From Pseudomonas aeruginosa (GTDB lineage Bacteria > Pseudomonadota > Gammaproteobacteria > Pseudomonadales > Pseudomonadaceae), in NCBI RefSeq assembly GCF_001457615.1, contig NZ_LN831024.1, positions 60,001-92,000 of the forward strand: DNA of 32,000 nt. Direction: 5' to 3'. Shown here piece by piece: positions 571-10,005 of the stretch. The notes under the pieces are model-generated. The model worked only from the letters and a program-made list of their open reading frames with translations. It had not been told where the DNA came from and ran no database searches. The translations under genes and the position numbers were made by a program. Each line of letters opens with the position of its first letter. Positions within the stretch are counted from its first letter, which is position 1.

Positions 571-1257
571 ATGAGTCACAGCGCCAAGAAAGCACTACTG
601 CCGCTCCTCGCCGTCGCCACCCTGGCCGGCCTGGCGGGCTGCGCCACCGAGACCTCCACCGCGTTGCCGGTACAGCAGGTCGAGAGCGTCAACCGACCCT
701 ACAGCGGCGTGCGTTCGCCGATTGCGGTAGGCAAGTTCGACAACCGCTCCAGCTACATGCGCGGGATCTTTTCCGATGGCGTCGACCGCCTCGGCGGCCA
801 GGCCAAGACCATTCTCATCACCCACCTGCAGCAGACCAATCGCTTCAACGTGCTGGACCGCGACAACATGAGCGAGATCCAGCAGGAAGCGGCGATCAAG
901 GGCCAGGCCCAGCGCCTGAAGGGTGCCGACTACGTGGTGACCGGCGATGTCACCGAGTTCGGCCGCAAGGAAGTCGGCGACCGCCAGCTGTTCGGCATCC
1001 TTGGCCGCGGCAAGTCGCAGATCGCCTACGCCAAGGTGGCGCTGAACATCGTCAACATCTCTACCTCGGAGGTCGTCTATTCGACCCAGGGCGCTGGCGA
1101 GTACGCCCTGTCCAACCGCGAGGTGATCGGCTTCGGCGGCACCGCCAGCTACGACTCGACCCTCAACGGCAAGGTTCTCGACCTGGCCATGCGCGAGGCG
1201 GTGAACAAGTTGGTCAACGCGGTCGATAGCGGGGCCTGGAAGCCACAGAACCAATAA
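571..1257 (+). CDS. CsgG-family outer-membrane lipoprotein (curli-secretion-channel-like)
   Basis: GGAG at 561-564 is 6 nt before the ATG. Signal peptide has lipobox LAGLAG|C. Similarity to E. coli CsgG runs along the length, e.g. AKVALNIVNISTSEVV versus CsgG IAVNLRVVNVSTGEIL, and ADYVVTGDVTEF versus ANIMVEGSIIGY. Confidence 0.85.
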   Translation: MSHSAKKALLPLLAVATLAGLAGCATETSTALPVQQVESVNRPYSGVRSPIAVGKFDNRSSYMRGIFSDGVDRLGGQAKTILITHLQQTNRFNVLDRDNMSEIQQEAAIKGQAQRLKGADYVVTGDVTEFGRKEVGDRQLFGILGRGKSQIAYAKVALNIVNISTSEVVYSTQGAGEYALSNREVIGFGGTASYDSTLNGKVLDLAMREAVNKLVNAVDSGAWKPQNQ

Positions 1258-1287
1258 TCCACCAGAAACCAGGGAATCACGGCACAC

Positions 1288-1641
1288 ATGAGCAAGACGA
1301 TCACATGGACGGCGGCGCTGCTGGGGAGCATGGCGCTGGCCGGGTGCAGCGGACCGAAGACGCTGTACCAGTGGGAGGGCTACCAGGCCCAGGTCCACGA
1401 ATACTTCAAGGGTGAATCCAAGGAGGCCCAGGCGCAGGCGCTGGAAGCCGACCTCGAGAAGATCCGGGCGAAGAACGGCGCGGTGCCGCCGGGCTACCAC
1501 GCCCAGCTGGGGCTGCTCTATTCCAGCATCGGCAAGGACGACCAGATGGTCCGCGAGTTCGAGACCGAGAAGGCGCTGTTTCCCGAGTCGGCGACCTACA
1601 TGGACTTCCTCCTGAACAACGCCCGTGGAGGTGCCCGTTGA
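1288..1641 (+). CDS. Small lipoprotein, DUF4810-like (second gene of the CsgG-like triad)
   Basis: Signal peptide with lipobox MALAG|CSG. 117 aa, helical and TPR-like composition. Position matches the conserved triad as I remember it. The stop overlaps the next gene's start. Confidence 0.7.
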   Translation: MSKTITWTAALLGSMALAGCSGPKTLYQWEGYQAQVHEYFKGESKEAQAQALEADLEKIRAKNGAVPPGYHAQLGLLYSSIGKDDQMVREFETEKALFPESATYMDFLLNNARGGAR

Positions 1642-2303
1642 AACTCGCCCGACTGTCCGGCCTGGTGGCCGGTTTCACCCTGCTGGCCCTGCTCGGCGGC
1701 TGCGCGCCGACCAAGAGCGTCGATTACTCGGCGTTCAAGCAGGCCAAGCCGCGCTCGATCCTGGTCCTGCCGCCGCTGAACGAGTCGCCCGACGTGAAGG
1801 CGACCTACAGCATGCTCTCGCAGGTCACCTTCCCGCTGGCCGAGGCCGGCTACTACGTGGTGCCGGTGGCGCTGGCCGACGAGACCTTCCGCCAGAACGG
1901 CCTGACCAGCGCCGGCGACGTGCACCAGGTGTCCCCGGCCAAGCTGCGCGAGATCTATGGCGCCGACGCGGCGCTGTACGTCACGGTGAGCGACTACGGC
2001 ACGCGCTACATGGTGATCAGCAGCGCGACCATCGTCACCGCCAGCGCCAAGCTGGTCGACCTGCGATCCGGCACCACCCTGTGGACCGGCTCGGCGACCG
2101 CCTCCAGCGAGGAAGGCAACGGCGGCAACAACGGCGGCCTGGTGGGCATGCTGATCACCGCGGCGGTCAAGCAGATCATCAACAGTTCGGTGGAGGACGC
2201 CGGTTATCCGATCGCCGGGATGACCAGCGCGCGCCTGCTCTCGGCCGGCCAGCCGGGCGGACTGTTGTACGGCCCGCGCTCGCCGAGGTACGGCAGCGAC
2301 TGA
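1638..2303 (+). CDS. Lipoprotein, DUF799/GNA1162-like (third gene of the triad)
   Basis: TTG start at 1638 overlaps the upstream TGA (TTGA), with GGAGG at 1627-1631. Lipobox LLGG|CAP. The motif SILVLPPLNES..ATY is typical of the GNA1162 family as I recall it. Confidence 0.8.
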   Translation: MKLARLSGLVAGFTLLALLGGCAPTKSVDYSAFKQAKPRSILVLPPLNESPDVKATYSMLSQVTFPLAEAGYYVVPVALADETFRQNGLTSAGDVHQVSPAKLREIYGADAALYVTVSDYGTRYMVISSATIVTASAKLVDLRSGTTLWTGSATASSEEGNGGNNGGLVGMLITAAVKQIINSSVEDAGYPIAGMTSARLLSAGQPGGLLYGPRSPRYGSD

Positions 2304-2317
2304 GCCGTGCGCCGGGG

Positions 2318-2701
2318 CTACGGGGACGTCTCCGTGGCCTCGGCGCAAGCCGCCGGGAGGGGCTTGGCCGCTGCGTTGCGCTTGGCCATGTACTGGCGGA
2401 TCAGGTCGTCGAGCAACGCCCGGATGGCGCGCCGCTCGTCCAGCCGCAGGCGGCCGATGGCCTCGAACTGCAGGCGCAGGTCTTCCGGTAGCGCCTGCCG
2501 CTCGCTGCGCTCGCAGACCAGCCAGTCGAGGGGCACCGCGAAACGTCCGGCGATGGTTTGCAGCACCACCAGCGACGGGTGCCCGCCCTTGGTTTCGAAG
2601 TGCCGCAACTGGCTCACGGTGACGCCCAATCGCTCGGCCATCTGCCGTTGGGTCAGGGCGTTCTGCTGGCGTAGGCGTAGGAGATTCTGCGCGAAGCTCA
2701 T
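2318..2701 (-). CDS. XRE-family helix-turn-helix transcriptional regulator
   Basis: N-terminal LRLRQQNALTQRQMAERLGVTVSQLRHFETKGGHPSL is a classic Cro/C1 HTH. GGAGAG lies 7 nt upstream of the ATG. Convergent with the lipoprotein operon, with a 14-nt gap. Confidence 0.85.
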   Translation of the reverse strand: MSFAQNLLRLRQQNALTQRQMAERLGVTVSQLRHFETKGGHPSLVVLQTIAGRFAVPLDWLVCERSERQALPEDLRLQFEAIGRLRLDERRAIRALLDDLIRQYMAKRNAAAKPLPAACAEATETSP

Positions 2702-2982: not shown

Positions 2983-4644
2983 CTAGTCCGCTTGCGCCCC
3001 CTGCGCCAGGGCGTTGCCGACGCCCACCAGCAGCGCCCGGGTCTGCGCCACGATGGCGCTGCGGTAGGCCTCGTAGCGGGCGTCGCTGATGGCGTTGTCG
3101 TTGCGCGCGCCGCCGCCGCTCGCCGGTACGCCGGTGTAGTAGTTGTTCATCACCGGGACATGGATGTGCCCGGCGGGAATCTCCAGGCGGAACGCGTCGC
3201 GCAGCACCGTGTTGCGGTAGGCGCTCTCGTTGGACAGGTAGTCGCCGCCACCGCCGTTGCGCGCGCAGATCCGTCGGTTCGGCGGGAGCACCAGGGAGGG
3301 ATCGGGCATGGCGTTCATCACCCCGTTGGTCGGCACGTTTTCGGTGCGCGGGTTGGCGCAATCGGGGAAGAAGTCGTAGTTGGTGTGCCAGGTGACGTCG
3401 AAGCCTTCCGCGGCCTGGCTGGTAGCGCCCGGCGGCCGCTCGATGCCGCGCCAGGTATCGGCGGCGAGCAACTGGCGGACCGGCAGCGAGGCCTTGGAGA
3501 ACTGTGCCGGCAGGTTCTGCCGCCAGCGGCTGGCGCTGTCGTAGCCGAGCCAGCGGCGCGGCGGGTTGATATTGCAGCCGGAGCCCCGCAGGGAAATCGG
3601 CGCGGTGCCGGGATTGGTCACGCTGCCCAGGGGAAGCACGTAGTTGGGCAAAGCGCTGTCGGCGGGGCAGTAGACGATGCCGTCGTTGCCGGCGGAGGAG
3701 CCGTGGAAGCGGCCGTTCCAGGCCTCCAGCCAGAACTGGTTGGCGCCGCCCTGGCTGATGGTGATGGAGGCGTCGACCCGGCGCGGGCCTGGGCGGAACC
3801 AGGGGCCCAGGGTGTCTTCCTGCATGCCGCGGTTGAACGGGTCGTAGCTGACCGGCAACAGGTAGGCCTCGATACGCAGCAGGCTGCCGTCGGCCAGCCT
3901 GAACTCGCGGCCGTCCAGCGCAAGGGCGGTGGCGCCCGAGGGGTTGCCGTTGCGCAGGCCGGTGTTCGCCGTCCCGGGAGTGCCCAGGGTGAAGACGTCG
4001 AAGCCGCTGATGATCATCCGCCGGTAGCGCGAGCCGTCGGCGGCGTAGCGGCGCGGCAGGTCGATGTCCAGCTGTCCGCGCGAGGCGCGTTCGAAGCGCC
4101 ATTGCAGCGCCTGGGCCTGGGCCTTGCCGAGGTGGAAGGATGGCGCCCACTGGCGCAGGGTGCGGGTCATGTAGAGGCGCGTCCAGTAGAGCATACGGTC
4201 ATCGCTGGCCGGCAGCGCGCCGGCGGGAATGGCGCGGCGCCCCTGGGCCCGGTCGACGGCGGCGCGCCACAGCGCGCGGCCCTCTTCGGTGACCAGCTTC
4301 AGTGCCTTGGCGTAGCTGGTGACCGGGGTGCGGCCGTCGGCGGCGCACAGGCGCTTGGCGAAGGCCGGTTCGAAGCCGTCGAAGCCGGCGCCCTTGACGA
4401 TGCGCTCGGCCAGCGGCGTCTGGTCGTGGGTGACGACGTTGGCGCCGCTGAACGGCAGCGGCGTGTCGAGCCGGCGCTCCTCGTAGGACAACGCTGCCTC
4501 GCGGTCCCAGGAACAGGCGACGCTGGGCGGCGTGCGGGCGCCGGCGAGGTCGCCGTTGGCGGCCCAGCCGGCGCCGGGCAGCAGGGCCGCCGAGACGGCC
4601 AGGGCGAAGAGGGAGTATCGGCTTGCGTGACGGGCGTAGCGCAT
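2983..4644 (-). CDS. Secreted 553-aa protein with a divergent pyroglutamyl-peptidase (C15)-like core; otherwise uncharacterised
   Basis: I place the start at the ATG at 4644 (MRYARHASRYSLFALAVSAALLPGAGWA|ANG, a Sec signal), preceded by AGGAG 8 nt upstream. The track ORF runs up to 4947 through a Pro-rich stretch that I consider non-coding; an alternative ATG is at 4674. C15-like motifs: IISGFDVF..NPSG, ISQGGANQFWLEAW, GDYLSNESAY, GHIHVP. Confidence 0.8.
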   Translation of the reverse strand: MRYARHASRYSLFALAVSAALLPGAGWAANGDLAGARTPPSVACSWDREAALSYEERRLDTPLPFSGANVVTHDQTPLAERIVKGAGFDGFEPAFAKRLCAADGRTPVTSYAKALKLVTEEGRALWRAAVDRAQGRRAIPAGALPASDDRMLYWTRLYMTRTLRQWAPSFHLGKAQAQALQWRFERASRGQLDIDLPRRYAADGSRYRRMIISGFDVFTLGTPGTANTGLRNGNPSGATALALDGREFRLADGSLLRIEAYLLPVSYDPFNRGMQEDTLGPWFRPGPRRVDASITISQGGANQFWLEAWNGRFHGSSAGNDGIVYCPADSALPNYVLPLGSVTNPGTAPISLRGSGCNINPPRRWLGYDSASRWRQNLPAQFSKASLPVRQLLAADTWRGIERPPGATSQAAEGFDVTWHTNYDFFPDCANPRTENVPTNGVMNAMPDPSLVLPPNRRICARNGGGGDYLSNESAYRNTVLRDAFRLEIPAGHIHVPVMNNYYTGVPASGGGARNDNAISDARYEAYRSAIVAQTRALLVGVGNALAQGAQAD

Positions 4645-5255
4645 CGGGTGGACTCCTGTTCTTGTTCGGTTCATGGGTCGATCGGTGCGGCGGGCGGAGC
4701 GCGGGCGAGCGGCGCCCGCCGGCGGCGCGGGGGCCGGGGCCGACGCAAGGTGCGTCGCGGGTTGCTGCGGTGGCGGACGGGAGGGCGGTGCTAGGGGGCG
4801 CGTGTCGCCGGTAGACGGAGGCGCGCGGAGGGAGGGTTGCGGGACGACGCGGAGGCGTCTGGGAAAGTCAGGTCCTTTGCCATGGATGCACCGATCGTTG
4901 TTCTTGCTGTTGTGGGGCGTCGGTGGGTGCACGGCCGGACTTCGCACCCGTGCGGCATTCTTGGAGGCGCCGGCGCGGGGCGTCCAACGAATTTATGTGG
5001 CCGCCGGGGATAGGAAAAGTTGATGGCGAACCGGTGCCGAAGCCCCCTGCCCCGGTACTTTCGCTGGCGCTGCGGCAATCCACCGCACTGGCGCGTTCGC
5101 TCGGGCCGGTCTTTGCTCTCCGGGGTCCGGCGGCTCGCCGGCGAGTCTTGCGGTGCGCCGCGAGCGGACGGGCGTTCGGTCCTTCTGCAGGCAAATGCCC
5201 TTGTTTTCGGAGAAGGACACGGATCGTTGATCGCTGTTTCGACCAAGGAGGTCAG

Positions 5256-5396
5256 ATGAAAAGGAAGATGCTGGCGGCTTCGCTGCTGCTGTGGATGTTC
5301 TCGCTGACGGCGCAGGCGGACTGCGCGGTGCTCGGGCCGGGGGAAGATCCCTGCGCGGGCCCGGTGCTGGGACCGACCGTCTGCGAGTGCCCGTGA
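5256..5396 (+). CDS. Small secreted 4-Cys peptide, 46-aa precursor (paralogue A)
   Basis: AAGGAGG at 5245-5251, then ATG at 5256. Sequence: MKRKMLAASLLLWMFSLTAQA|DCAVLGPGEDPCAGPVLGPTVCECP*. High GC3. Has a paralogue 61 nt downstream. In the track it is visible only as the tail of the longer ORF 4923..5396. Confidence 0.7.
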   Translation: MKRKMLAASLLLWMFSLTAQADCAVLGPGEDPCAGPVLGPTVCECP

Positions 5397-5457
5397 TGAC
5401 CGACTGTACCCTCGACCAGGGACAGGGAGCGTTCGATTACCAACCAGGAGGTTGCAA

Positions 5458-5595
5458 ATGAAGAAAGTACTGTTGGCTGTGTTCCTGCTCTGTGGCTTCT
5501 CTCTTACCGCCCAGGCCGCGTGCCCGGTTTTCGGCCCGTCCGAGGACCCGTGCAGCGGGCCGGTGTTCGGTCCGTCGACCTGCGAATGCCCTTGA
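5458..5595 (+). CDS. Small secreted 4-Cys peptide, 45-aa precursor (paralogue B); not in the supplied ORF track
   Basis: Own translation: AGGAGG at 5446-5451, 6-nt spacer, ATG at 5458. Sequence: MKKVLLAVFLLCGFSLTAQA|ACPVFGPSEDPCSGPVFGPSTCECP*, with TGA at 5593-5595. Same signal-peptide end and same Cys spacing as paralogue A. Confidence 0.65.
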   Translation: MKKVLLAVFLLCGFSLTAQAACPVFGPSEDPCSGPVFGPSTCECP

Positions 5596-5608
5596 GGTAG
5601 GTCGTCTG

Positions 5609-5636
5609 GCGGGCCCGGTGCAGCGGGCCCGCTTCC
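5609..5636 (+). terminator. GC-rich hairpin after the peptide pair (possible terminator)
   Basis: GCGGGCCCG (5609-5617) pairs perfectly with CGGGCCCGC (5624-5632) across a 6-nt loop. Only a weak T tract (TTCC) follows. Confidence 0.5.
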
Positions 5637-5744
5637 GGATGGATCGCTCGAAGTTGCCTGCTTTAATTCTCCATTCCCCGCGCCGCCCTACTTTTCCCGC
5701 TCGTCCATCGTCGCGTCGAACGTTGCCACGAAATCAGCGTCGGT

Positions 5745-6035
5745 GGACAACTCTTATATTCAATAGTTGTACGATCTGAGTTTGTTGTAGTCATTTGCTT
5801 AGTTGGCTATCCATATGATTGCCGTAAAGCAATTATAAGTTTAATTGGATTAGCTTTCTAAGTCTTTGGAAAGAGCCGTGAACGACCCTGTAATATCTGG
5901 TTGTAGAGCCGCGTAATGATGTTTCAGGATGTTTCATTAATTTTGTAGATTATTGTTTTTCCTTTGTTTTTTTAAAAACAGCTACCAGATTTAGATAGAT
6001 ATTAATTAACTCGGCCACGTTTTTTCCTGTTCTAT
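5745..6035. other. Sharply AT-rich non-coding block upstream of phzH
   Basis: By eye roughly one third GC, against about two thirds in the flanks. Contains A/T runs and short palindromes (TGTTTTTTTAAAAACA, TTAATTAA) and the 6-bp inverted repeat ACAACT/AGTTGT at 5747-5770. No credible ORF. Confidence 0.7.
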
Positions 6036-6217
6036 CATTGGCCTTCCTTGGGCGCAGGCCTGCCGAAACTGCTTATCTTCAGGTCCTCGAAAAGTTCATA
6101 CATCGACCGCCTTGGGCGAAGCATTCGTACGCCGGCAATCTGGCCGGCCGCACGGATGTTTTCAGCATGTTCTCTGGATGAATTTCCCGATAAAACATCA
6201 ATTAGAGGAGTTTCCCT

Positions 6218-8050
6218 ATGTGCGGTCTCGCGGGTTGGGTGGATTACACGCGCAAGCTCGACGACGAATTTCCGGCGATCTTCGCCATGACCGATACGCT
6301 CGCCTTGCGTGGGCCGGATGCCGAGGGCATCTGGAAGCACCGCAACGCCCTGCTGGGTCACCGGCGGCTGGCGGTCATCGACCTCAGCGGCGGCGTGCAG
6401 CCGATGTCCTATCGCTTTCCCACCGGCCAGGAGGTCACCCTCGTCTACACCGGCGAGGTGTACAACCACGATGCCCTGCGCGAGCGGTTGCGCCGGGCCG
6501 GACACGAGTTCCGCACCCGCAGCGATACCGAGGTGGTCCTGCACGCCTATCTGCAATGGGGCGAGCGTTGTTGCGAGTACCTGACCGGGATGTTCGCCTT
6601 CGCCGTCTTCGATGGCCGCGACGGCCACCTGCTGCTGGTGCGCGACCGCTTGGGCATCAAGCCGCTGTATTACGCGCGGCACCGCGAGGGACTGCTGTTC
6701 GGCTCGGAGATCAAGTCCATCCTGGCGCATCCGGAATTCGCCGCCAGGCTCGACGCGGTCGGCCTGGCCGACCTCCTGACGCTGTCCCGGGGCACTTCGC
6801 AGACGCCGTTCCGCGAGGTCCAGGAACTGCTGCCCGGCCACCTGCTGTCCTGGCGTCCCAATTCCCAGGCGAAGTTGCGCCGCTACTGGGAGGTGCGCCG
6901 CCAGGAGCATGCCGACGACCTGCAGAGCACCGTGCAGCGCACCCGCGAACTGGTCACCCGCGCCCTGGGGTCGCAATTGCACGCCGACGTTCCGGTGTGT
7001 TCGCTGCTATCGGGTGGGCTCGATTCGACCGCCCTGACCGGCATCGCCCAGCGCATCGCGAAGGCGGAGCACGGCGGCGACATCAATTCATTCTCGGTGG
7101 ACTTCGTCGGTCAGGCCGAGCAGTTCCGCAGCGACGACCTGCGTCCCGACCAGGACCAGCCGTTCGCCCTGCTGGCCGCGCAGTACATCGGCAGCCGTCA
7201 TCGCACCGTGCTCATCGACAATGCCGAACTGGTCTGCGAACGAGCGCGCGAAGAGGTATTCCGGGCCAAGGACGTACCTTTCACCTTCGGCGACATGGAT
7301 ACCTCGCTGCACCTGATGTTCGGCGAGATCCGCCGGCATTCCACGGTGGCCATCTCCGGCGAAGGCGCCGACGAGCTGTTCGGTGGCTACGGCTGGTTCC
7401 GCGATCCGCAGGCGGTGGCTGCGGCGCGCTTCCCCTGGGCCTCCAGGGTGCGCTTGCCGGCCGGCTTCATCGACGCCGGTTTCAACCGCCGCTGCGATCT
7501 CCTCCAGTACCAGCAGGCCAGCTACGACGAAGGGCTGCGCCAGGTCGAACACCTGGCCGGCGACAGCCCGGAGGAGCGGCGGATGCGCGAGTTCAGCCAC
7601 CTGCACCTGAAGCGCTGGATGGTGCTGCTGCTCGAACGCAAGGATCGCCTGAGCATGTGCAACGGCCTGGAGGTGCGGGTGCCCTACACCGACCATGAGC
7701 TGGTGGAGTACGTCTACAACGTGCCCTGGTCGATCAAGAGCCGGGACGGCGAGGAGAAGTGGCTGCTCAAGCGGGCCTGCGCCGACTATGTCCCGGAAGC
7801 CGTGCTCAAGCGCCGCAAGAGCCCTTATCCGACTTCTGCCAACCTCGGCTACGAGCGTTTCCTGCGCGGGAGCGTGCGGCGCTTGCTGGAGGACGCGGCG
7901 AACCCGGTGTTCGGCATCGTTTCGCGGGAGTTCCTGGCCGCCGAACTGGAGCATCCGGAGGGGTACTTCAACACCCAGGTGAGCCGCCACAACCTGGAGA
8001 CCGCGCTGGCGCTGGAAGGCTGGCTCAGGTTGTACGGGCTCTCCGCCTGA
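6218..8050 (+). CDS. phzH: Glutamine-dependent asparagine-synthetase-family amidotransferase; matches phenazine-modifying PhzH (phenazine-1-carboxamide formation)
   Basis: GAGGAG lies upstream of the ATG. N-terminal MCGLAGW supplies the Ntn Cys2 nucleophile. PP-loop SLLSGGLDST is present. Length of 610 aa and the position after the PA0049/50-like genes match my memory of PAO1 phzH. Confidence 0.88.
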   Translation: MCGLAGWVDYTRKLDDEFPAIFAMTDTLALRGPDAEGIWKHRNALLGHRRLAVIDLSGGVQPMSYRFPTGQEVTLVYTGEVYNHDALRERLRRAGHEFRTRSDTEVVLHAYLQWGERCCEYLTGMFAFAVFDGRDGHLLLVRDRLGIKPLYYARHREGLLFGSEIKSILAHPEFAARLDAVGLADLLTLSRGTSQTPFREVQELLPGHLLSWRPNSQAKLRRYWEVRRQEHADDLQSTVQRTRELVTRALGSQLHADVPVCSLLSGGLDSTALTGIAQRIAKAEHGGDINSFSVDFVGQAEQFRSDDLRPDQDQPFALLAAQYIGSRHRTVLIDNAELVCERAREEVFRAKDVPFTFGDMDTSLHLMFGEIRRHSTVAISGEGADELFGGYGWFRDPQAVAAARFPWASRVRLPAGFIDAGFNRRCDLLQYQQASYDEGLRQVEHLAGDSPEERRMREFSHLHLKRWMVLLLERKDRLSMCNGLEVRVPYTDHELVEYVYNVPWSIKSRDGEEKWLLKRACADYVPEAVLKRRKSPYPTSANLGYERFLRGSVRRLLEDAANPVFGIVSREFLAAELEHPEGYFNTQVSRHNLETALALEGWLRLYGLSA

Positions 8051-8530: not shown

Positions 8531-8749
8531 CGGGCGTCCTGCGCTTGTCGGTATTTTTCCTCAGTCAAGCCGGCTTTCACCGCCTGCTCCACTGCCGCTT
8601 CTGCTAGGCGGCAGCGGGCCATCAACGTTCGAGGCTCGTCTGCAGGCTGCTAGGCCATGTTGCGGTGCGCCTTGCCAGTGCTTCCGGTTTCGAGAGGACA
8701 TCTGTTCCCTGCCTGCACTGGTATATGCTTGAACACTGAATATTCGTCC

Positions 8750-8764
8750 CCTGCCCGGGGCAGG
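8750..8764. promoter_or_regulatory. Palindrome CCTGCCC-G-GGGCAGG upstream of the antitoxin gene (candidate autoregulatory operator)
   Basis: Perfect 7-bp inverted repeat about 35 nt upstream of the antitoxin start. CCTGCC recurs at 8708-8713. The function is inferred only from the fact that type II TA operons are usually autoregulated. Confidence 0.3.
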
Positions 8765-8796
8765 CAGGTCCGGGAAGTGGATCCTTGGAGGTACAT

Positions 8797-8967
8797 ATGT
8801 CGCGATCGCTGCGCAAATCGAAGAAACTCGTCATTCCTCCCCGTCCTCGCGATGAGGTCGTGCGCGCGCGCCCGGCCTTGGGAGAACATCAGAAGCAGGT
8901 CGAGAACGCCTTTGCCCTGGCCTTCGAACGCTACGAAAAAACCTTCGAAGAGCTGGCCAAGGTTTAA
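8797..8967 (+). CDS. Putative small antitoxin (56 aa) paired with the Doc toxin
   Basis: GGAGG at 8787-8791, then ATG at 8797. The track ORF starts at the TTG at 8785. The stop is 2 nt before the Doc ATG. Small and charged, with C-terminal ..YEKTFEELAKV. Family not recognised. Confidence 0.6.
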   Translation: MSRSLRKSKKLVIPPRPRDEVVRARPALGEHQKQVENAFALAFERYEKTFEELAKV

Positions 8968-8969
8968 GC

Positions 8970-9440
8970 ATGTCGCAAGACCAGCAAGGGATACGCTATC
9001 TCTCCGTTGCAGATCTCGTTCGCCTCAATGAGTTGCTCATCCTGGCCCAGACTCCGGACGAGCCGATAGGCGTCCTCAAACCGAACGAGTTGGAGTCCGC
9101 ACAGCAACGGCCAGCCAACCATCGTTACTATGCTCGAACCGACGATATCATCACGCTGGCTGCGGTCTTTGCGGAAAGCTTGGCAATGAACCACTGCTTT
9201 GCCAATGGCAACAAACGCACGGCGGCGGCGGCCGCTACGGTTTTCCTCCTGCTCAATGGCATAGAGCTGACGGGGCCCGCTCAGGACTTCGTCGACATCA
9301 TGGTCGCCCTCGTGACTCGTGAAGCGAGCGTTCAGGACCTGGAAGACTGGATGTTCTACTGGCACAGACCATTCGACGCTTACAACCTGCCGGACAGCGA
9401 CGCTTTCGAGCGAATGGTCGCCCGCTTGGGCATTGGTTAG
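8970..9440 (+). CDS. Doc (death-on-curing) / Fic-family toxin
   Basis: HCFANGNKRTAAA matches the Doc signature H-x-F-x-[DN]-[AG]-N-K-R-T-A (P1 Doc: HIFNDANKRTA). GC content and GC3 are lower than in neighbouring genes. Confidence 0.85.
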   Translation: MSQDQQGIRYLSVADLVRLNELLILAQTPDEPIGVLKPNELESAQQRPANHRYYARTDDIITLAAVFAESLAMNHCFANGNKRTAAAAATVFLLLNGIELTGPAQDFVDIMVALVTREASVQDLEDWMFYWHRPFDAYNLPDSDAFERMVARLGIG

Positions 9441-9456
9441 TCCGTAGAACGCCTTC

Positions 9457-10005
9457 TCAAGCCTCGCGGATGAACCGCACGGGTACCCGCTCGGTCAGCC
9501 AGACGCCGTTCTCCGCCTGGTGGAATAGGTGCCCGGCCAGGTGCATGTCGCGCGCGTCGATTTCCAGCAGAACCGGGCTGCCGTAGCGGCGGCCGACTTC
9601 CAGGGCGGTGGCGCGGCGGGCGGAGAGATGGACGTGGTGGCGGCTGCCGGGAACCAGGCCGCGCTCGCGGATGGAGTCGAGGAAGCGGCTGGCGGTGCCG
9701 TGGTAGAGCACTGCGGGCGGGACCGCGGGGGCGTAGGCGATGGCCACCGCGGCATGCGAGTGGCCTTGCACGGCGCGGATGCGCTGGCCATCGGCGGAGA
9801 GGGCGAAGCGCTTCTTGTCGTTGTTCTCGACCACCGCGCCGAGCAGCATGCGGTCGAGGGCGCGGCCGTCCCGCGCCGCGCCGGCGATCAGGGCGTCGAT
9901 GTCGGCCCAGCCTTCGCCGTCCAGCGTCAGGCCGATGGCCTCGGGCTGGTGGCGAAGGACATAGCTGAGGAACTTGCTGGTGTCGTCGAGGGTTTTCCGA
10001 TCCAT
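9457..10005 (-). CDS. kptA: RNA 2'-phosphotransferase (Tpt1/KptA family)
   Basis: Near-colinear with E. coli KptA: [58 protein letters not shown]. Confidence 0.9.

What the first reader, a model, noticed from the sequence alone, without database searches (positions are those of the whole stretch)
5256..5636. Tandem pair of tiny secreted 4-cysteine peptide genes, one invisible to the ORF track
- Two ORFs of 46 and 45 codons sit 61 nt apart.
- Each has a near-consensus Shine-Dalgarno (AAGGAGG at 5245-5251; AGGAGG at 5446-5451).
- Each has a Sec-type signal peptide ending in the same ..FSLTAQA.
- The predicted mature 25-mers are clearly paralogous: DCAVLGPGEDPCAGPVLGPTVCECP and ACPVFGPSEDPCSGPVFGPSTCECP.
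- Cys spacing is identical in both (C-x9-C-x9-C-x-C).
- Each mature peptide looks like an internal duplication: xV[LF]GPxxxxC occurs twice.
- Third-codon positions are GC-rich, as in real genes of this genome, and a perfect 9-bp hairpin follows the pair.

I do not recognise the family. Small, duplicated, disulfide-capable exported peptides may be signals, toxins or bacteriocin-like molecules, metal (CxC) binders, or RiPP-like precursors.
Basis: seen in the sequence. Interest (0 to 1): 0.75.

Follow-up and report, generated by a model that had tools for sequence, protein, structure and literature searches.

The report
Rsm-controlled secreted cysteine mini-peptide pair (PA0050 family)
These are two real, strongly conserved Pseudomonas genes for tiny exported four-cysteine peptides: the first is the already annotated PA0050, the second is its paralogue, their translation is probably held off by the RsmA/RsmF RNA-binding proteins, and what the peptides do is still unknown.

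Summary
ORF1 (5256-5396, 46 codons) and ORF2 (5458-5595, 45 codons) lie 61 nt apart. Each has a strong ribosome-binding site, a Sec-type signal ending in AQA, and a 25-residue product with cysteines spaced C-x9-C-x9-C-x-C.

**Already catalogued.**
- Both score far above the cut-off of NCBIfam NF047882, "PA0050 family protein".
- ORF1 is identical to PA0050 of strain PAO1 (UniProt Q9I782).
- ORF2 is annotated in other strains.

**Real genes.**
- About 25 Pseudomonas species and two Burkholderia species carry the family.
- pN/pS over the mature part is 0.07-0.15.
- One species pair shows 16 synonymous and 0 non-synonymous changes.

**New here.**
- No neighbouring gene is conserved across species, so no modifying enzyme, transporter or immunity partner travels with the peptides. 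This argues against a RiPP or bacteriocin cluster.
- Both leaders carry a conserved ACA-N-GGA-NN-GTT motif. Each also has a ribosome-binding-site hairpin with GGA in its loop. This is the signature of a CsrA/RsmA target.
- Published prediction and RsmF pull-down data agree with that.
- A decayed third copy lies just upstream of ORF1.

**Most likely.** The pair is a self-contained two-gene unit. It yields disulfide-bonded periplasmic or secreted peptides only when Rsm repression is lifted. Function is unknown. Interest is moderate.

The parts
5060..5205 (+). Decayed third copy of the peptide gene (pseudogene remnant). Its 3' end supplies part of the leader of ORF1.
   Evidence: Direct repeat 5163-5203 vs 5554-5594 at 78% identity, and 5102-5118 vs 5556-5572. 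A three-way alignment of the units shows the stop TGA changed to TGT. In the frame of ORF1 the stretch reads ..STALARSLGPVFALRGP..ASGRAFGPSAGKCPCF. The boundaries are approximate.
5125..5255 (+). 5' leader of ORF1 (131 nt).
   Evidence: PMC11882435 Table 2 models the PA14_00630 leader from a sequence that starts at window 5125. That this start is a mapped transcription start site is my inference from the non-default length.
5217..5228 (+). Upstream Rsm-type motif of ORF1, ACACGGATCGTT (GGA at 5221-5223).
   Evidence: ACANGGANNGTT occurs only twice in 32 kb, once in each leader, against 0.08 expected. It is conserved at about -32 to -35 across species.
5241..5253 (+). Ribosome-binding-site hairpin of ORF1: GACC-AAGGA-GGTC, with GGA in the loop.
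   Evidence: Present in the minimum-energy fold. Across AAGGA-loop leaders 9-12 of 12 sequences pair at each of 4 stem levels, including a C-G to U-A change.
5256..5396 (+). ORF1, type A, identical to PA0050 (46 aa). The signal is residues 1-21. The mature peptide is DCAVLGPGEDPCAGPVLGPTVCECP.
   Evidence: 98.4 bits against a cut-off of 45; exact match to Q9I782_PSEAE, on at least 1000 contigs; pN/pS 0.07 over the mature part.
5404..5425 (+). Intergenic hairpin directly before the upstream GGA motif of ORF2.
   Evidence: Minimum-energy and centroid fold. The same GU(A/G)CCCU...AGGG(C/A)AC arrangement is seen in other species.
5422..5433 (+). Upstream Rsm-type motif of ORF2, ACAGGGAGCGTT (GGA at 5426-5428).
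5441..5454 (+). Ribosome-binding-site hairpin of ORF2: CAACC-AGGA-GGTTG.
   Evidence: Across AGGA-loop leaders 12-14 of 14 sequences pair at each of 5 levels. The outer levels vary among G-C, A-U and G-U, and among C-G, U-G and U-A.
5458..5595 (+). ORF2, type B paralogue (45 aa). The signal is residues 1-20. The mature peptide is ACPVFGPSEDPCSGPVFGPSTCECP.
   Evidence: 94.0 bits; A0A0D6FC20_PSEAI, 'PA0050 family protein', on at least 1000 contigs; pN/pS 0.15 over the mature part.
5609..5632 (+). GC-rich hairpin that ends the unit; probable terminator.
   Evidence: A hairpin at the same position is found in nearly all species, with different stem sequences and in several with a U-run.

Best explanation
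The locus is a self-contained two-gene unit (leader, ORF1/PA0050, ORF2, terminator hairpin) of the PA0050 family. It arose by tandem duplication, and a third copy upstream has decayed.

Proposed steps, each marked as shown or inferred:
1. **Export (inferred from sequence).** Each product is exported by Sec and cut after AQA by signal peptidase I. This leaves an acidic 25-residue peptide of about 2.40 kDa (A) or 2.48 kDa (B).
2. **Folding (inferred).** In the oxidising periplasm the four invariant cysteines most likely form two disulfides. These would lock a proline- and glycine-rich mini-fold built on the two V-[LF]-G-P motifs.
3. **Control (supported by conserved motifs and published data; no direct RsmA binding assay).** RsmA/RsmF dimers bind an upstream ACA-N-GGA motif and a GGA in the loop of the ribosome-binding-site hairpin, and so block translation. 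The peptides would then be made when the Gac/Rsm switch releases repression, alongside type VI secretion and other products of the sessile, competitive state.
4. **Action (guess).** The peptides probably work outside the cytoplasm by binding a conserved partner, as a ligand or an inhibitor. Two observations point that way: the mature sequence is nearly frozen across distant species, and no immunity, transport or modification gene travels with it.
For: **Coding and family.**
- NF047882 scores are 98.4 and 94.0 bits against a cut-off of 45.
- ORF1 is an exact match to PA0050/Q9I782.
- Homologues occur in about 25 Pseudomonas species in the GTDB scan and in Burkholderia ubonensis and B. stagnalis.
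- A search of 1.84 billion representative proteins found only 18 hits, so the family is narrow.

**Selection.**
- pN/pS over the mature part is 0.07 (A) and 0.15 (B), against 0.17 and 0.34 over the signal.
- The A peptide against P. danubii shows 16 synonymous and 0 non-synonymous differences in 25 codons.
- 36 clinical strains show no amino-acid change (PMC2864246).

**Export.**
- Both products have a charged start, a hydrophobic core and an AQA cleavage site.
- All four cysteines are kept in every intact full-length member.

**Stand-alone unit.**
- Neighbours differ between lineages.
- The downstream hairpin is conserved.

**Rsm control.**
- The upstream motif occurs only at the two leaders in the window.
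- It is conserved in position across species.
- The hairpins appear in the folds and show covariation.
- PA0050 is a CSRA_TARGET-predicted RsmA target (PMC4066749 Table S2).
- A thermodynamic model gives -26.96 RT against a cut-off of -25.75 and predicts 'repression' (PMC11882435).
- The mRNA is enriched in the RsmF pull-down, L2FC 3.08, padj 0.001.
- It is listed under the Brencic and Lory rsmA-mutant data.
- It rises together with H1 type VI secretion genes and PA0277 in biofilms (PMC9993114).

**Duplication history.**
- Decayed copy upstream of ORF1.
- A-type pseudogenes in three other species.
Against: - Nobody has detected the peptides, their export or their disulfides. I found no proteomic report.
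- The AlphaFold2 model is of low confidence (pLDDT 64.8), so the fold is not established.
- The RsmA pull-down enrichment was not significant (L2FC 1.60, padj 0.13).
- I could not read the direction of change in the rsmA mutant, because that paper is not held.
- Four thiols with a C-terminal CxC could bind metal instead of forming disulfides.
- The Burkholderia members are basic rather than acidic, which weakens the idea of one conserved partner surface.
- The 'ligand or inhibitor' step has no direct evidence.
Confidence: 0.55

Rival explanations
1. Periplasmic metal-binding peptides. The four thiols, including the C-terminal C-x-C-P, would bind Cu(I), Zn or Cd and buffer or pass on metal, rather than forming disulfides.
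For: - The cysteines are the most conserved feature, and they persist even in the divergent Burkholderia members, where the net charge flips.
- Acidic residues flank the cysteines.
- Periplasmic copper proteins that use cysteine are known; this is from my own knowledge and was not tested here.
Against: - No metal-resistance or metal-regulated gene is a conserved neighbour.
- The expression tables I could read that mention PA0050 concern meropenem-treated biofilms and a mexT knockout, and the Rsm compilations link it to RsmA/RsmF, not to metals.
- The non-cysteine residues (V-[LF]-G-P, D-P) are also nearly invariant. A simple thiolate site would not need that.
- Free thiols are hard to keep reduced in the periplasm (general knowledge).
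Confidence: 0.12
2. Secreted antimicrobial or toxic peptides, bacteriocin-like or enterotoxin-like, used against competitors or hosts.
For: - They are small, exported and cysteine-rich.
- They are co-regulated with type VI secretion genes under Gac/Rsm-linked conditions.
- The Burkholderia variants are cationic.
- The distribution is patchy and there are signs of transfer between genera.
Against: - No immunity gene, dedicated exporter or double-glycine leader is present.
- Neighbours are unrelated housekeeping genes.
- The mature sequence is under very strong purifying selection, not diversifying selection.
- The Pseudomonas peptides are strongly acidic.
- There is no match to any Pfam family, including toxin families, at E up to 10, and none on plasmids or phages.
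Confidence: 0.08
3. Precursors of ribosomally made, enzymatically modified peptides (RiPPs), for example with thioamide or azoline formed on the cysteines by a YcaO enzyme.
For: In the P. putida group (L016, L022, L029, L032) a 732-aa OsmC-YcaO fusion lies directly upstream, on the same strand as the A-B pair.
Against: - The adjacency is confined to one lineage. In P. mosselii the gene is about 4 kb away. It is absent from the P. aeruginosa, P. protegens, P. cichorii, P. fuscovaginae and Burkholderia loci.
- The N-terminal extension is a standard Sec signal with an AQA site, not a recognition leader.
- That extension varies more than the core, the reverse of the usual RiPP pattern.
Confidence: 0.04
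4. The protein products are irrelevant. The short ORFs would be regulatory upstream ORFs for phzH, or the GGA-rich transcript would act mainly as a sponge for RsmA/RsmF.
For: - The leaders carry 3-4 GGA motifs each.
- The transcript co-purifies with RsmF.
- phzH follows about 620 nt downstream.
Against: - Substitutions are overwhelmingly synonymous, so the amino-acid sequence is what is selected.
- The hairpin and an AT-rich gap separate the pair from phzH.
- phzH is not the neighbour in any other species.
Confidence: 0.03

Closest known systems
NCBIfam NF047882 'PA0050 family protein' (function unknown)
   Same: Both ORFs match end to end and far above the cut-off. ORF1 is the founding member, PA0050.
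   Different: Nothing differs; this is the family. The name carries no function.
CsrA/RsmA-repressed mRNAs, such as hcnA in P. protegens and tssA1, fha1 and magA in P. aeruginosa
   Same: Two or more A(N)GGA sites are present, one in the loop of a hairpin that covers the ribosome-binding site and one about 21-26 nt upstream. The gene is predicted as a target by two published models, and the mRNA is enriched with RsmF.
   Different: No gel-shift or reporter test exists for PA0050. Enrichment with RsmA itself was not significant. The comparison with the hcnA and SELEX consensus rests on my own knowledge.
Heat-stable enterotoxins STa and STb of E. coli (small Sec-exported peptides whose disulfides form in the periplasm)
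   Same: The general plan is shared: a Sec signal, a very small cysteine-rich mature peptide, and no dedicated exporter next to the gene.
   Different: There is no sequence similarity and no Pfam match. The pair has no pro-region, is chromosomal and not on plasmids, is acidic, has a different cysteine pattern, and has no known target. The resemblance is recalled from memory.
YcaO-dependent RiPP precursor peptides
   Same: Short cysteine-bearing peptides lie next to a YcaO gene in the P. putida group.
   Different: They carry a Sec signal instead of a recognition leader. The adjacency is not conserved. The core is frozen while the leader varies.

Membership tests
PA0050 family (NCBIfam NF047882) | Full-length HMM score above the curated cut-off of 45 bits | tested here: met
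   98.4 bits (ORF1) and 94.0 bits (ORF2), aligned over profile positions 1-45 of 45. ORF1 is identical to Q9I782, the PA0050 protein.
Sec / signal peptidase I secreted protein | Charged N-region, hydrophobic core, and small residues at -3 and -1 (A-x-A) before the cleavage site | tested here: met
   MKRK/MKK, then 13 hydrophobic residues, then TAQA. The pattern is conserved as [TSN]A[QYML]A across the family. This is a rule-based reading only; no SignalP run and no experiment.
Bacterial lipoprotein (signal peptidase II) | Lipobox [LVI][ASTVI][GAS]C, with Cys at +1 | tested here: not met
   Type A has D before the Cys. Type B has Q at -3, and some members have E at -1 (P0023, P0039).
CsrA/RsmA/RsmF-regulated mRNA | At least two A(N)GGA sites in the leader, one overlapping the ribosome-binding site and presented in a hairpin loop | tested here: met
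   GGA lies at about -32 to -35 and at -9 to -11 in nearly all leaders. The hairpins appear in the folds and show covariation. The upstream motif occurs only at these two sites in the window.
CsrA/RsmA/RsmF-regulated mRNA | Physical binding and a regulatory effect | not testable with these tools
   Literature only. RsmF pull-down: L2FC 3.08, padj 0.001. RsmA pull-down: L2FC 1.60, padj 0.13. Listed under the rsmA-mutant data. No gel-shift or reporter assay was found.
RiPP precursor (YcaO type) | Conserved co-location with the modifying enzyme | tested here: not met
   OsmC-YcaO is adjacent only in P. putida-group loci and absent from all other loci.
Bacteriocin or microcin cluster | Adjacent immunity gene and dedicated exporter; double-glycine type leader | tested here: not met
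   Neighbours are unrelated: a PF27118 protein, phzH, a nucleoside hydrolase, a strictosidine-synthase-like protein, AMP nucleosidase and polA. The leader is a Sec signal.
Any described Pfam family, solved structure or defence system (this covers heat-stable enterotoxin families) | Detectable sequence similarity | tested here: not met
   No Pfam hit at E up to 10. The PDB profile search gave only a signal-peptide-like match at E = 1.2. No PADLOC hit.
Disulfide-rich mini-protein | Even number of invariant cysteines that are oxidised in the mature form | tested here: inconclusive
   Four invariant cysteines, but the oxidation state cannot be tested here. The AlphaFold2 model has pLDDT 64.8.

The most novel reading that the evidence does not exclude
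The A and B peptides are a new class of Gram-negative extracytoplasmic peptide effector. They would be disulfide-locked 25-mers released only in the Gac/Rsm 'on' state, acting as a hormone-like signal or as an inhibitor of a conserved periplasmic or surface protein, for example a sensor kinase domain or a protease. This would add a peptide layer to the switch between acute and chronic lifestyles in Pseudomonas.
Probability: 0.2. Interest if true: 0.75.

Novelty: already known. Interest (0 to 1): 0.4.

Why it matters
**What the pair is.** PA0050 and its paralogue belong to the core genome of a major pathogen. They have not varied in protein sequence in surveyed clinical strains. They are nearly frozen across distant Pseudomonas lineages. 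No function has been assigned to them.

**What this analysis adds.**
- It ties both genes to the Gac/Rsm switch, which governs biofilm formation, type VI secretion and chronic infection.
- It shows that they act without dedicated helper genes.
- It therefore turns an anonymous 'hypothetical protein' into a specific, cheap experiment: two synthetic 25-mers, two masses to look for, and four GGA sites to mutate.

**If a partner is found.** A receptor or target would give a new type of small exported regulator or inhibitor in Gram-negative bacteria.

**As it stands.** The result is a well-characterised lead, not a surprise.

Tried and rejected
- **Related loci from a protein alignment.** I used a degenerate DNA pattern instead. 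That pattern misses divergent members, and the P. aeruginosa genome itself did not appear among the hits.
- **Link to the divergent neighbour PA0049.** Rejected.
  - It is absent from every other peptide locus.
  - It belongs to a widespread family, PF27118, found mostly in betaproteobacteria that were not found to carry the peptides.
- **Link to phzH.** Rejected: it is the neighbour only in P. aeruginosa.
- **YcaO link.** Kept only as a low-probability rival.
- **Structure.**
  - AlphaFold2 with 17 sequences gave pLDDT 64.8, with the mature part as coil, so no fold search was run.
  - PDB, Pfam and PADLOC gave nothing.
- **RNA families.** Rfam found nothing in 4000-6600.
- **Mobility.** No match on plasmids or phages.
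- **Literature.**
  - 'PA14_00630' has no hit in main texts.
  - Neither the Brencic and Lory 2009 rsmA-regulon paper nor the Brencic et al. 2009 GacS/GacA paper is held.
  - Supplements of two iModulon papers do not mention PA0050.
  - The RsmA/N CLIP-seq preprint has no supplement held.
  - Part 4 of the compilation table did not contain PA0050, so two of its four occurrences remain unidentified.
- **Promoter.** I looked by eye for a sigma-54 or AlgU promoter upstream of 5125 and found no convincing match. The sigma-70 scan found nothing on the + strand.
Full report
**1. Observation**

The two ORFs are exactly as described.
- ORF1 (5256-5396) encodes MKRKMLAASLLLWMFSLTAQA|DCAVLGPGEDPCAGPVLGPTVCECP.
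- ORF2 (5458-5595) encodes MKKVLLAVFLLCGFSLTAQA|ACPVFGPSEDPCSGPVFGPSTCECP.
- They are 61 nt apart. AAGGAGG lies at 5245-5251 and AGGAGG at 5446-5451.
- GC at third codon positions is 0.87 and 0.76, as in the real genes of the window.
- A perfect 9-bp GC hairpin (5609-5617 with 5624-5632) follows ORF2.
- A degenerate DNA pattern for D-P-C-x-G-P-V-[LF]-G-P hits the window twice, against 0 expected.

**2. Identity**

The window is the PA0045-PA0054 region of Pseudomonas aeruginosa. It holds:
- a CsgG-like lipoprotein at 571-1257;
- an RNA 2'-phosphotransferase at 9457-10005.

Both small ORFs match NCBIfam NF047882, 'PA0050 family protein', at E = 1.7e-28 and 4.2e-27, with 98.4 and 94.0 bits against a cut-off of 45.

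The annotation status of each ORF is as follows.
- ORF1 is identical to UniProt Q9I782_PSEAE, so it is PA0050 itself.
- ORF2 is identical to A0A0D6FC20_PSEAI and is labelled 'PA0050 family protein' in many strains.
- Each exact sequence is seen on at least 1000 contigs.

The family is therefore already catalogued, but no function is attached. Pfam, PDB and PADLOC give nothing.

**3. Are they real genes?**

Yes.

*Distribution.*
- Searches of 5.8 billion proteins returned 22 and 23 relatives. Named sources included P. aeruginosa, P. protegens, P. mosselii, P. vanderleydeniana, P. fuscovaginae and P. cichorii.
- A scan of one genome per GTDB species with the degenerate pattern found 36 stretches of DNA. 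Of these, 25 loci carry recognisable family genes. Twenty-four of the records are named Pseudomonas and one is named Pantoea sp. Cy-639; two species contributed two loci each.
- A profile search of 1.84 billion representative proteins gave only 18 hits. Two were divergent members, from Burkholderia ubonensis and B. stagnalis.

*Selection.*
- Codon analysis gives pN/pS of 0.07 (type A) and 0.15 (type B) over the 25 mature codons.
- Over the signal codons it is 0.17 and 0.34.
- The A peptide of the window differs from that of P. danubii by 16 synonymous and 0 non-synonymous changes.
- A published survey found no amino-acid change in 36 clinical strains (PMC2864246).

**4. Anatomy of the family**

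Two main types recur.
- Type A has the mature form D-C-A-V-L-G-P-x-x-D-P-C-A-G-P-V-L-G-P-T-x-C-x-C-P.
- Type B has the mature form [ASE]-C-P-V-F-G-P-x-x-D-P-C-[SA]-G-P-V-F-G-P-[ST]-x-C-x-C-P.
- The order is always A, then B.

Type B is the more widespread.
- It stands alone in the P. cichorii group and in a third subtype with the signal MKIKILLA...
- In L015, L021 and L033 the A gene upstream of B is visibly decayed.

Conservation has a clear pattern.
- The four cysteines, the two V-[LF]-G-P motifs and D-P-C are invariant or nearly so.
- Variation sits at mature positions 8-9, 13, 20-21, 23 and the C-terminal tail.

One P. protegens strain has a B copy reduced to SCPVFGPSTCECP. That is a deletion between the two PVFGP repeats, and an intact A copy lies upstream.

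In the window a third, decayed copy lies directly upstream of ORF1, at about 5060-5205.
- Positions 5163-5203 are 78% identical to the 3' end of ORF2.
- The stop codon has become TGT.

The locus therefore evolves by tandem duplication and decay.

**5. Context**

Nothing is conserved next to the genes.
- PA0049 (2983-4674, minus strand) is a secreted protein. It is absent from all other peptide loci. It belongs to PF27118, a family common in betaproteobacteria.
- Other neighbours include a nucleoside hydrolase and a strictosidine-synthase-like protein, a UvrA-like protein (my reading of the translated ORF), and, in Burkholderia, AMP nucleosidase and polA.
- The one suggestive neighbour is a 732-aa OsmC-YcaO fusion directly upstream in P. 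putida-group loci. It is confined to that lineage.
- No copy was found on plasmids or phages.
- A GC-rich hairpin follows the last gene in nearly every species, with different stem sequences and often a U-run.

The unit is therefore self-contained: leader, A, B, terminator.

**6. Regulation (the main new point)**

Both leaders share a conserved plan. A hairpin comes first, then ACA-N-GGA-NN-GTT at about -32 to -35. The ribosome-binding site follows, inside a short hairpin with GGA in its loop.
- For ORF1 the hairpin is GACC-AAGGA-GGTC (5241-5253).
- For ORF2 it is CAACC-AGGA-GGTTG (5441-5454).

Supporting tests:
- These hairpins appear in the minimum-energy folds.
- Across species 12-14 of 14 B-type leaders pair at each of five stem levels.
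- The outer levels switch among G-C, A-U and G-U, and among C-G, U-G and U-A. The non-pairing combination A...C is absent from these B-type leaders; it occurs once among the AAGGA-loop leaders.
- ACANGGANNGTT occurs only twice in the 32-kb window, at the two leaders, against 0.08 expected.

From established knowledge, two GGA sites a few tens of nucleotides apart, one over the ribosome-binding site in a loop, is the binding plan of CsrA/RsmA dimers. PMC11882435 gives the consensus as A(N)GGA.

Published data agree:
- PA0050 is among the RsmA targets predicted by CSRA_TARGET (PMC4066749 Table S2).
- A thermodynamic model scores PA14_00630 at -26.96 RT against a cut-off of -25.75 and predicts repression.
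- In RIP-seq the mRNA is enriched with RsmF (L2FC 3.08, padj 0.001). The RsmA enrichment is positive but not significant (1.60, padj 0.13).
- It is listed among genes from the Brencic and Lory rsmA-mutant study.
- It rises together with H1 type VI secretion genes and PA0277 in meropenem-treated biofilms.
- It rises 2.3-fold in a mexT knockout.

The same paper models the leader from a position equal to window 5125, which gives a 131-nt leader. That this position is a mapped start site is my inference.

**7. Mechanism proposed**

- *Shown:* real coding genes, family membership, strong constraint on the mature part, a stand-alone unit, and conserved Rsm-type leaders.
- *Inferred from sequence:* Sec export and cleavage after AQA. 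The lipobox test fails, so these are not lipoproteins.
- *Computed from that inferred cleavage:* mature peptides of 2395.7 and 2479.7 Da if oxidised, with pI about 4.
- *Inferred from general knowledge:* two disulfides form in the periplasm.
- *Guess:* the peptides bind a conserved partner outside the cytoplasm.

The guess rests on three points. The sequence is frozen, helper genes are absent, and the genes are co-regulated with the sessile, competitive programme.

**8. Rivals**

- **Metal binding** (0.12). It fits the invariant cysteines and the CxC motif. It does not explain the invariance of the other residues, and no metal link appears in the genomic context or in the expression data I could read.
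- **Toxin or bacteriocin** (0.08). It fits small exported cysteine-rich peptides. It conflicts with purifying selection, the acidity of the peptides and the absence of an immunity gene.
- **YcaO RiPP** (0.04). It rests on one lineage-specific adjacency and conflicts with the Sec signal.
- **RNA-only role** (0.03). The substitution pattern refutes it.

**9. Verdict**

The finding is real and correctly described, but it is an annotated family, and ORF1 is PA0050 itself. It is 'already known' as an object and unknown as a function. Interest is moderate (0.4). It is a clean, testable lead into Gac/Rsm-controlled exported peptides, not a surprising new system.

Noticed in passing
window 5060-5205: A decayed third copy of the peptide gene lies directly upstream of ORF1. 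It has lost its cysteines and its stop codon, and the leader of ORF1 (from 5125) starts inside it. Similar remnants of a preceding copy's 3' end appear upstream of A in other species (for example ..VPWVCIRP.. in P0046).
   Followed up: partly
window 2983-4674 (-): PA0049 is a 563-aa secreted protein with no hit in the local Pfam copy. Its homologues are precomputed as PF27118 and are common in betaproteobacteria (Comamonas, Bordetella, Rubrivivax). One UniRef entry calls a homologue 'pyrrolidone-carboxylate peptidase', and the stretch IISGFDVF..NGNPSG resembles that enzyme's N-terminal motif (from memory). It is also enriched in the RsmF pull-down (L2FC 2.98) and is on the RsmA ChIPPAR list. 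It is not co-conserved with the peptides.
   Followed up: partly
window 5700-6150: An AT-rich island (GC falls to 0.37 in a genome of about 0.67) lies between the terminator hairpin and phzH. The only two sigma-70-like promoter hits of the region are here, both on the minus strand (5860-5832 and 5976-5949).
   Followed up: no
L016 4043-6376, L022 1549-3945, L029 2748-5132, L032 3-1445: In P. putida-group genomes a 732-aa OsmC + YcaO + YcaO_C fusion protein sits directly upstream of the A-B pair on the same strand. A hairpin lies between it and the A leader. It is the only enzyme neighbour that could conceivably act on a peptide.
   Followed up: partly
L037 5930-6170; L041 5000-5290; compare L002 and L017: The Burkholderia ubonensis and B. 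stagnalis genes share a recognisably similar leader (..CGACGCCCGCACCAAGGACCGACGAAC..ATTGAGAGTGGA..) and the MKIKILLA signal with one Pseudomonas subtype (L002, L017, L018). Their mature peptides are divergent and basic. This suggests transfer between genera.
   Followed up: partly
L021 and L033 (P. fuscovaginae group), L015: The A-type gene upstream of B is a pseudogene. The leader is fused to the second half (..GGDPCVGPLPGAIVCECP*) with no signal peptide, or the copy has decayed further. B is intact.
   Followed up: yes
L042 4799-5102 (P. protegens CP087182): One strain has a B copy shortened to a 13-residue mature peptide (SCPVFGPSTCECP, three cysteines) by a deletion between the two PVFGP repeats. 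The A copy upstream is intact.
   Followed up: partly
P0014, P0018-P0022, P0035, P0037, P0042 (P. aeruginosa assemblies): Rare frameshifted or truncated versions of both peptides occur in a few assemblies (clusters of 1-5 member sequences, against at least 1000 contigs for the intact forms). I could not tell real mutations from assembly errors.
   Followed up: no
window 8550-9450: A segment of lower GC (0.57-0.59) holds a Doc-family toxin gene (8970-9440; TIGR01550, E = 4.7e-24). An overlapping upstream ORF (8657-9031) could be its antitoxin.
   Followed up: no
window 571-2303 and 2318-2701 (-); L018 3626-5286: A CsgG-like lipoprotein gene is followed by two small genes (PA0045-PA0047), with an RstR-like HTH repressor on the opposite strand. 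Homologues of PA0045-PA0047 also lie about 3.5 kb from the peptide gene in L018. This is the only partial synteny seen outside P. aeruginosa.
   Followed up: no
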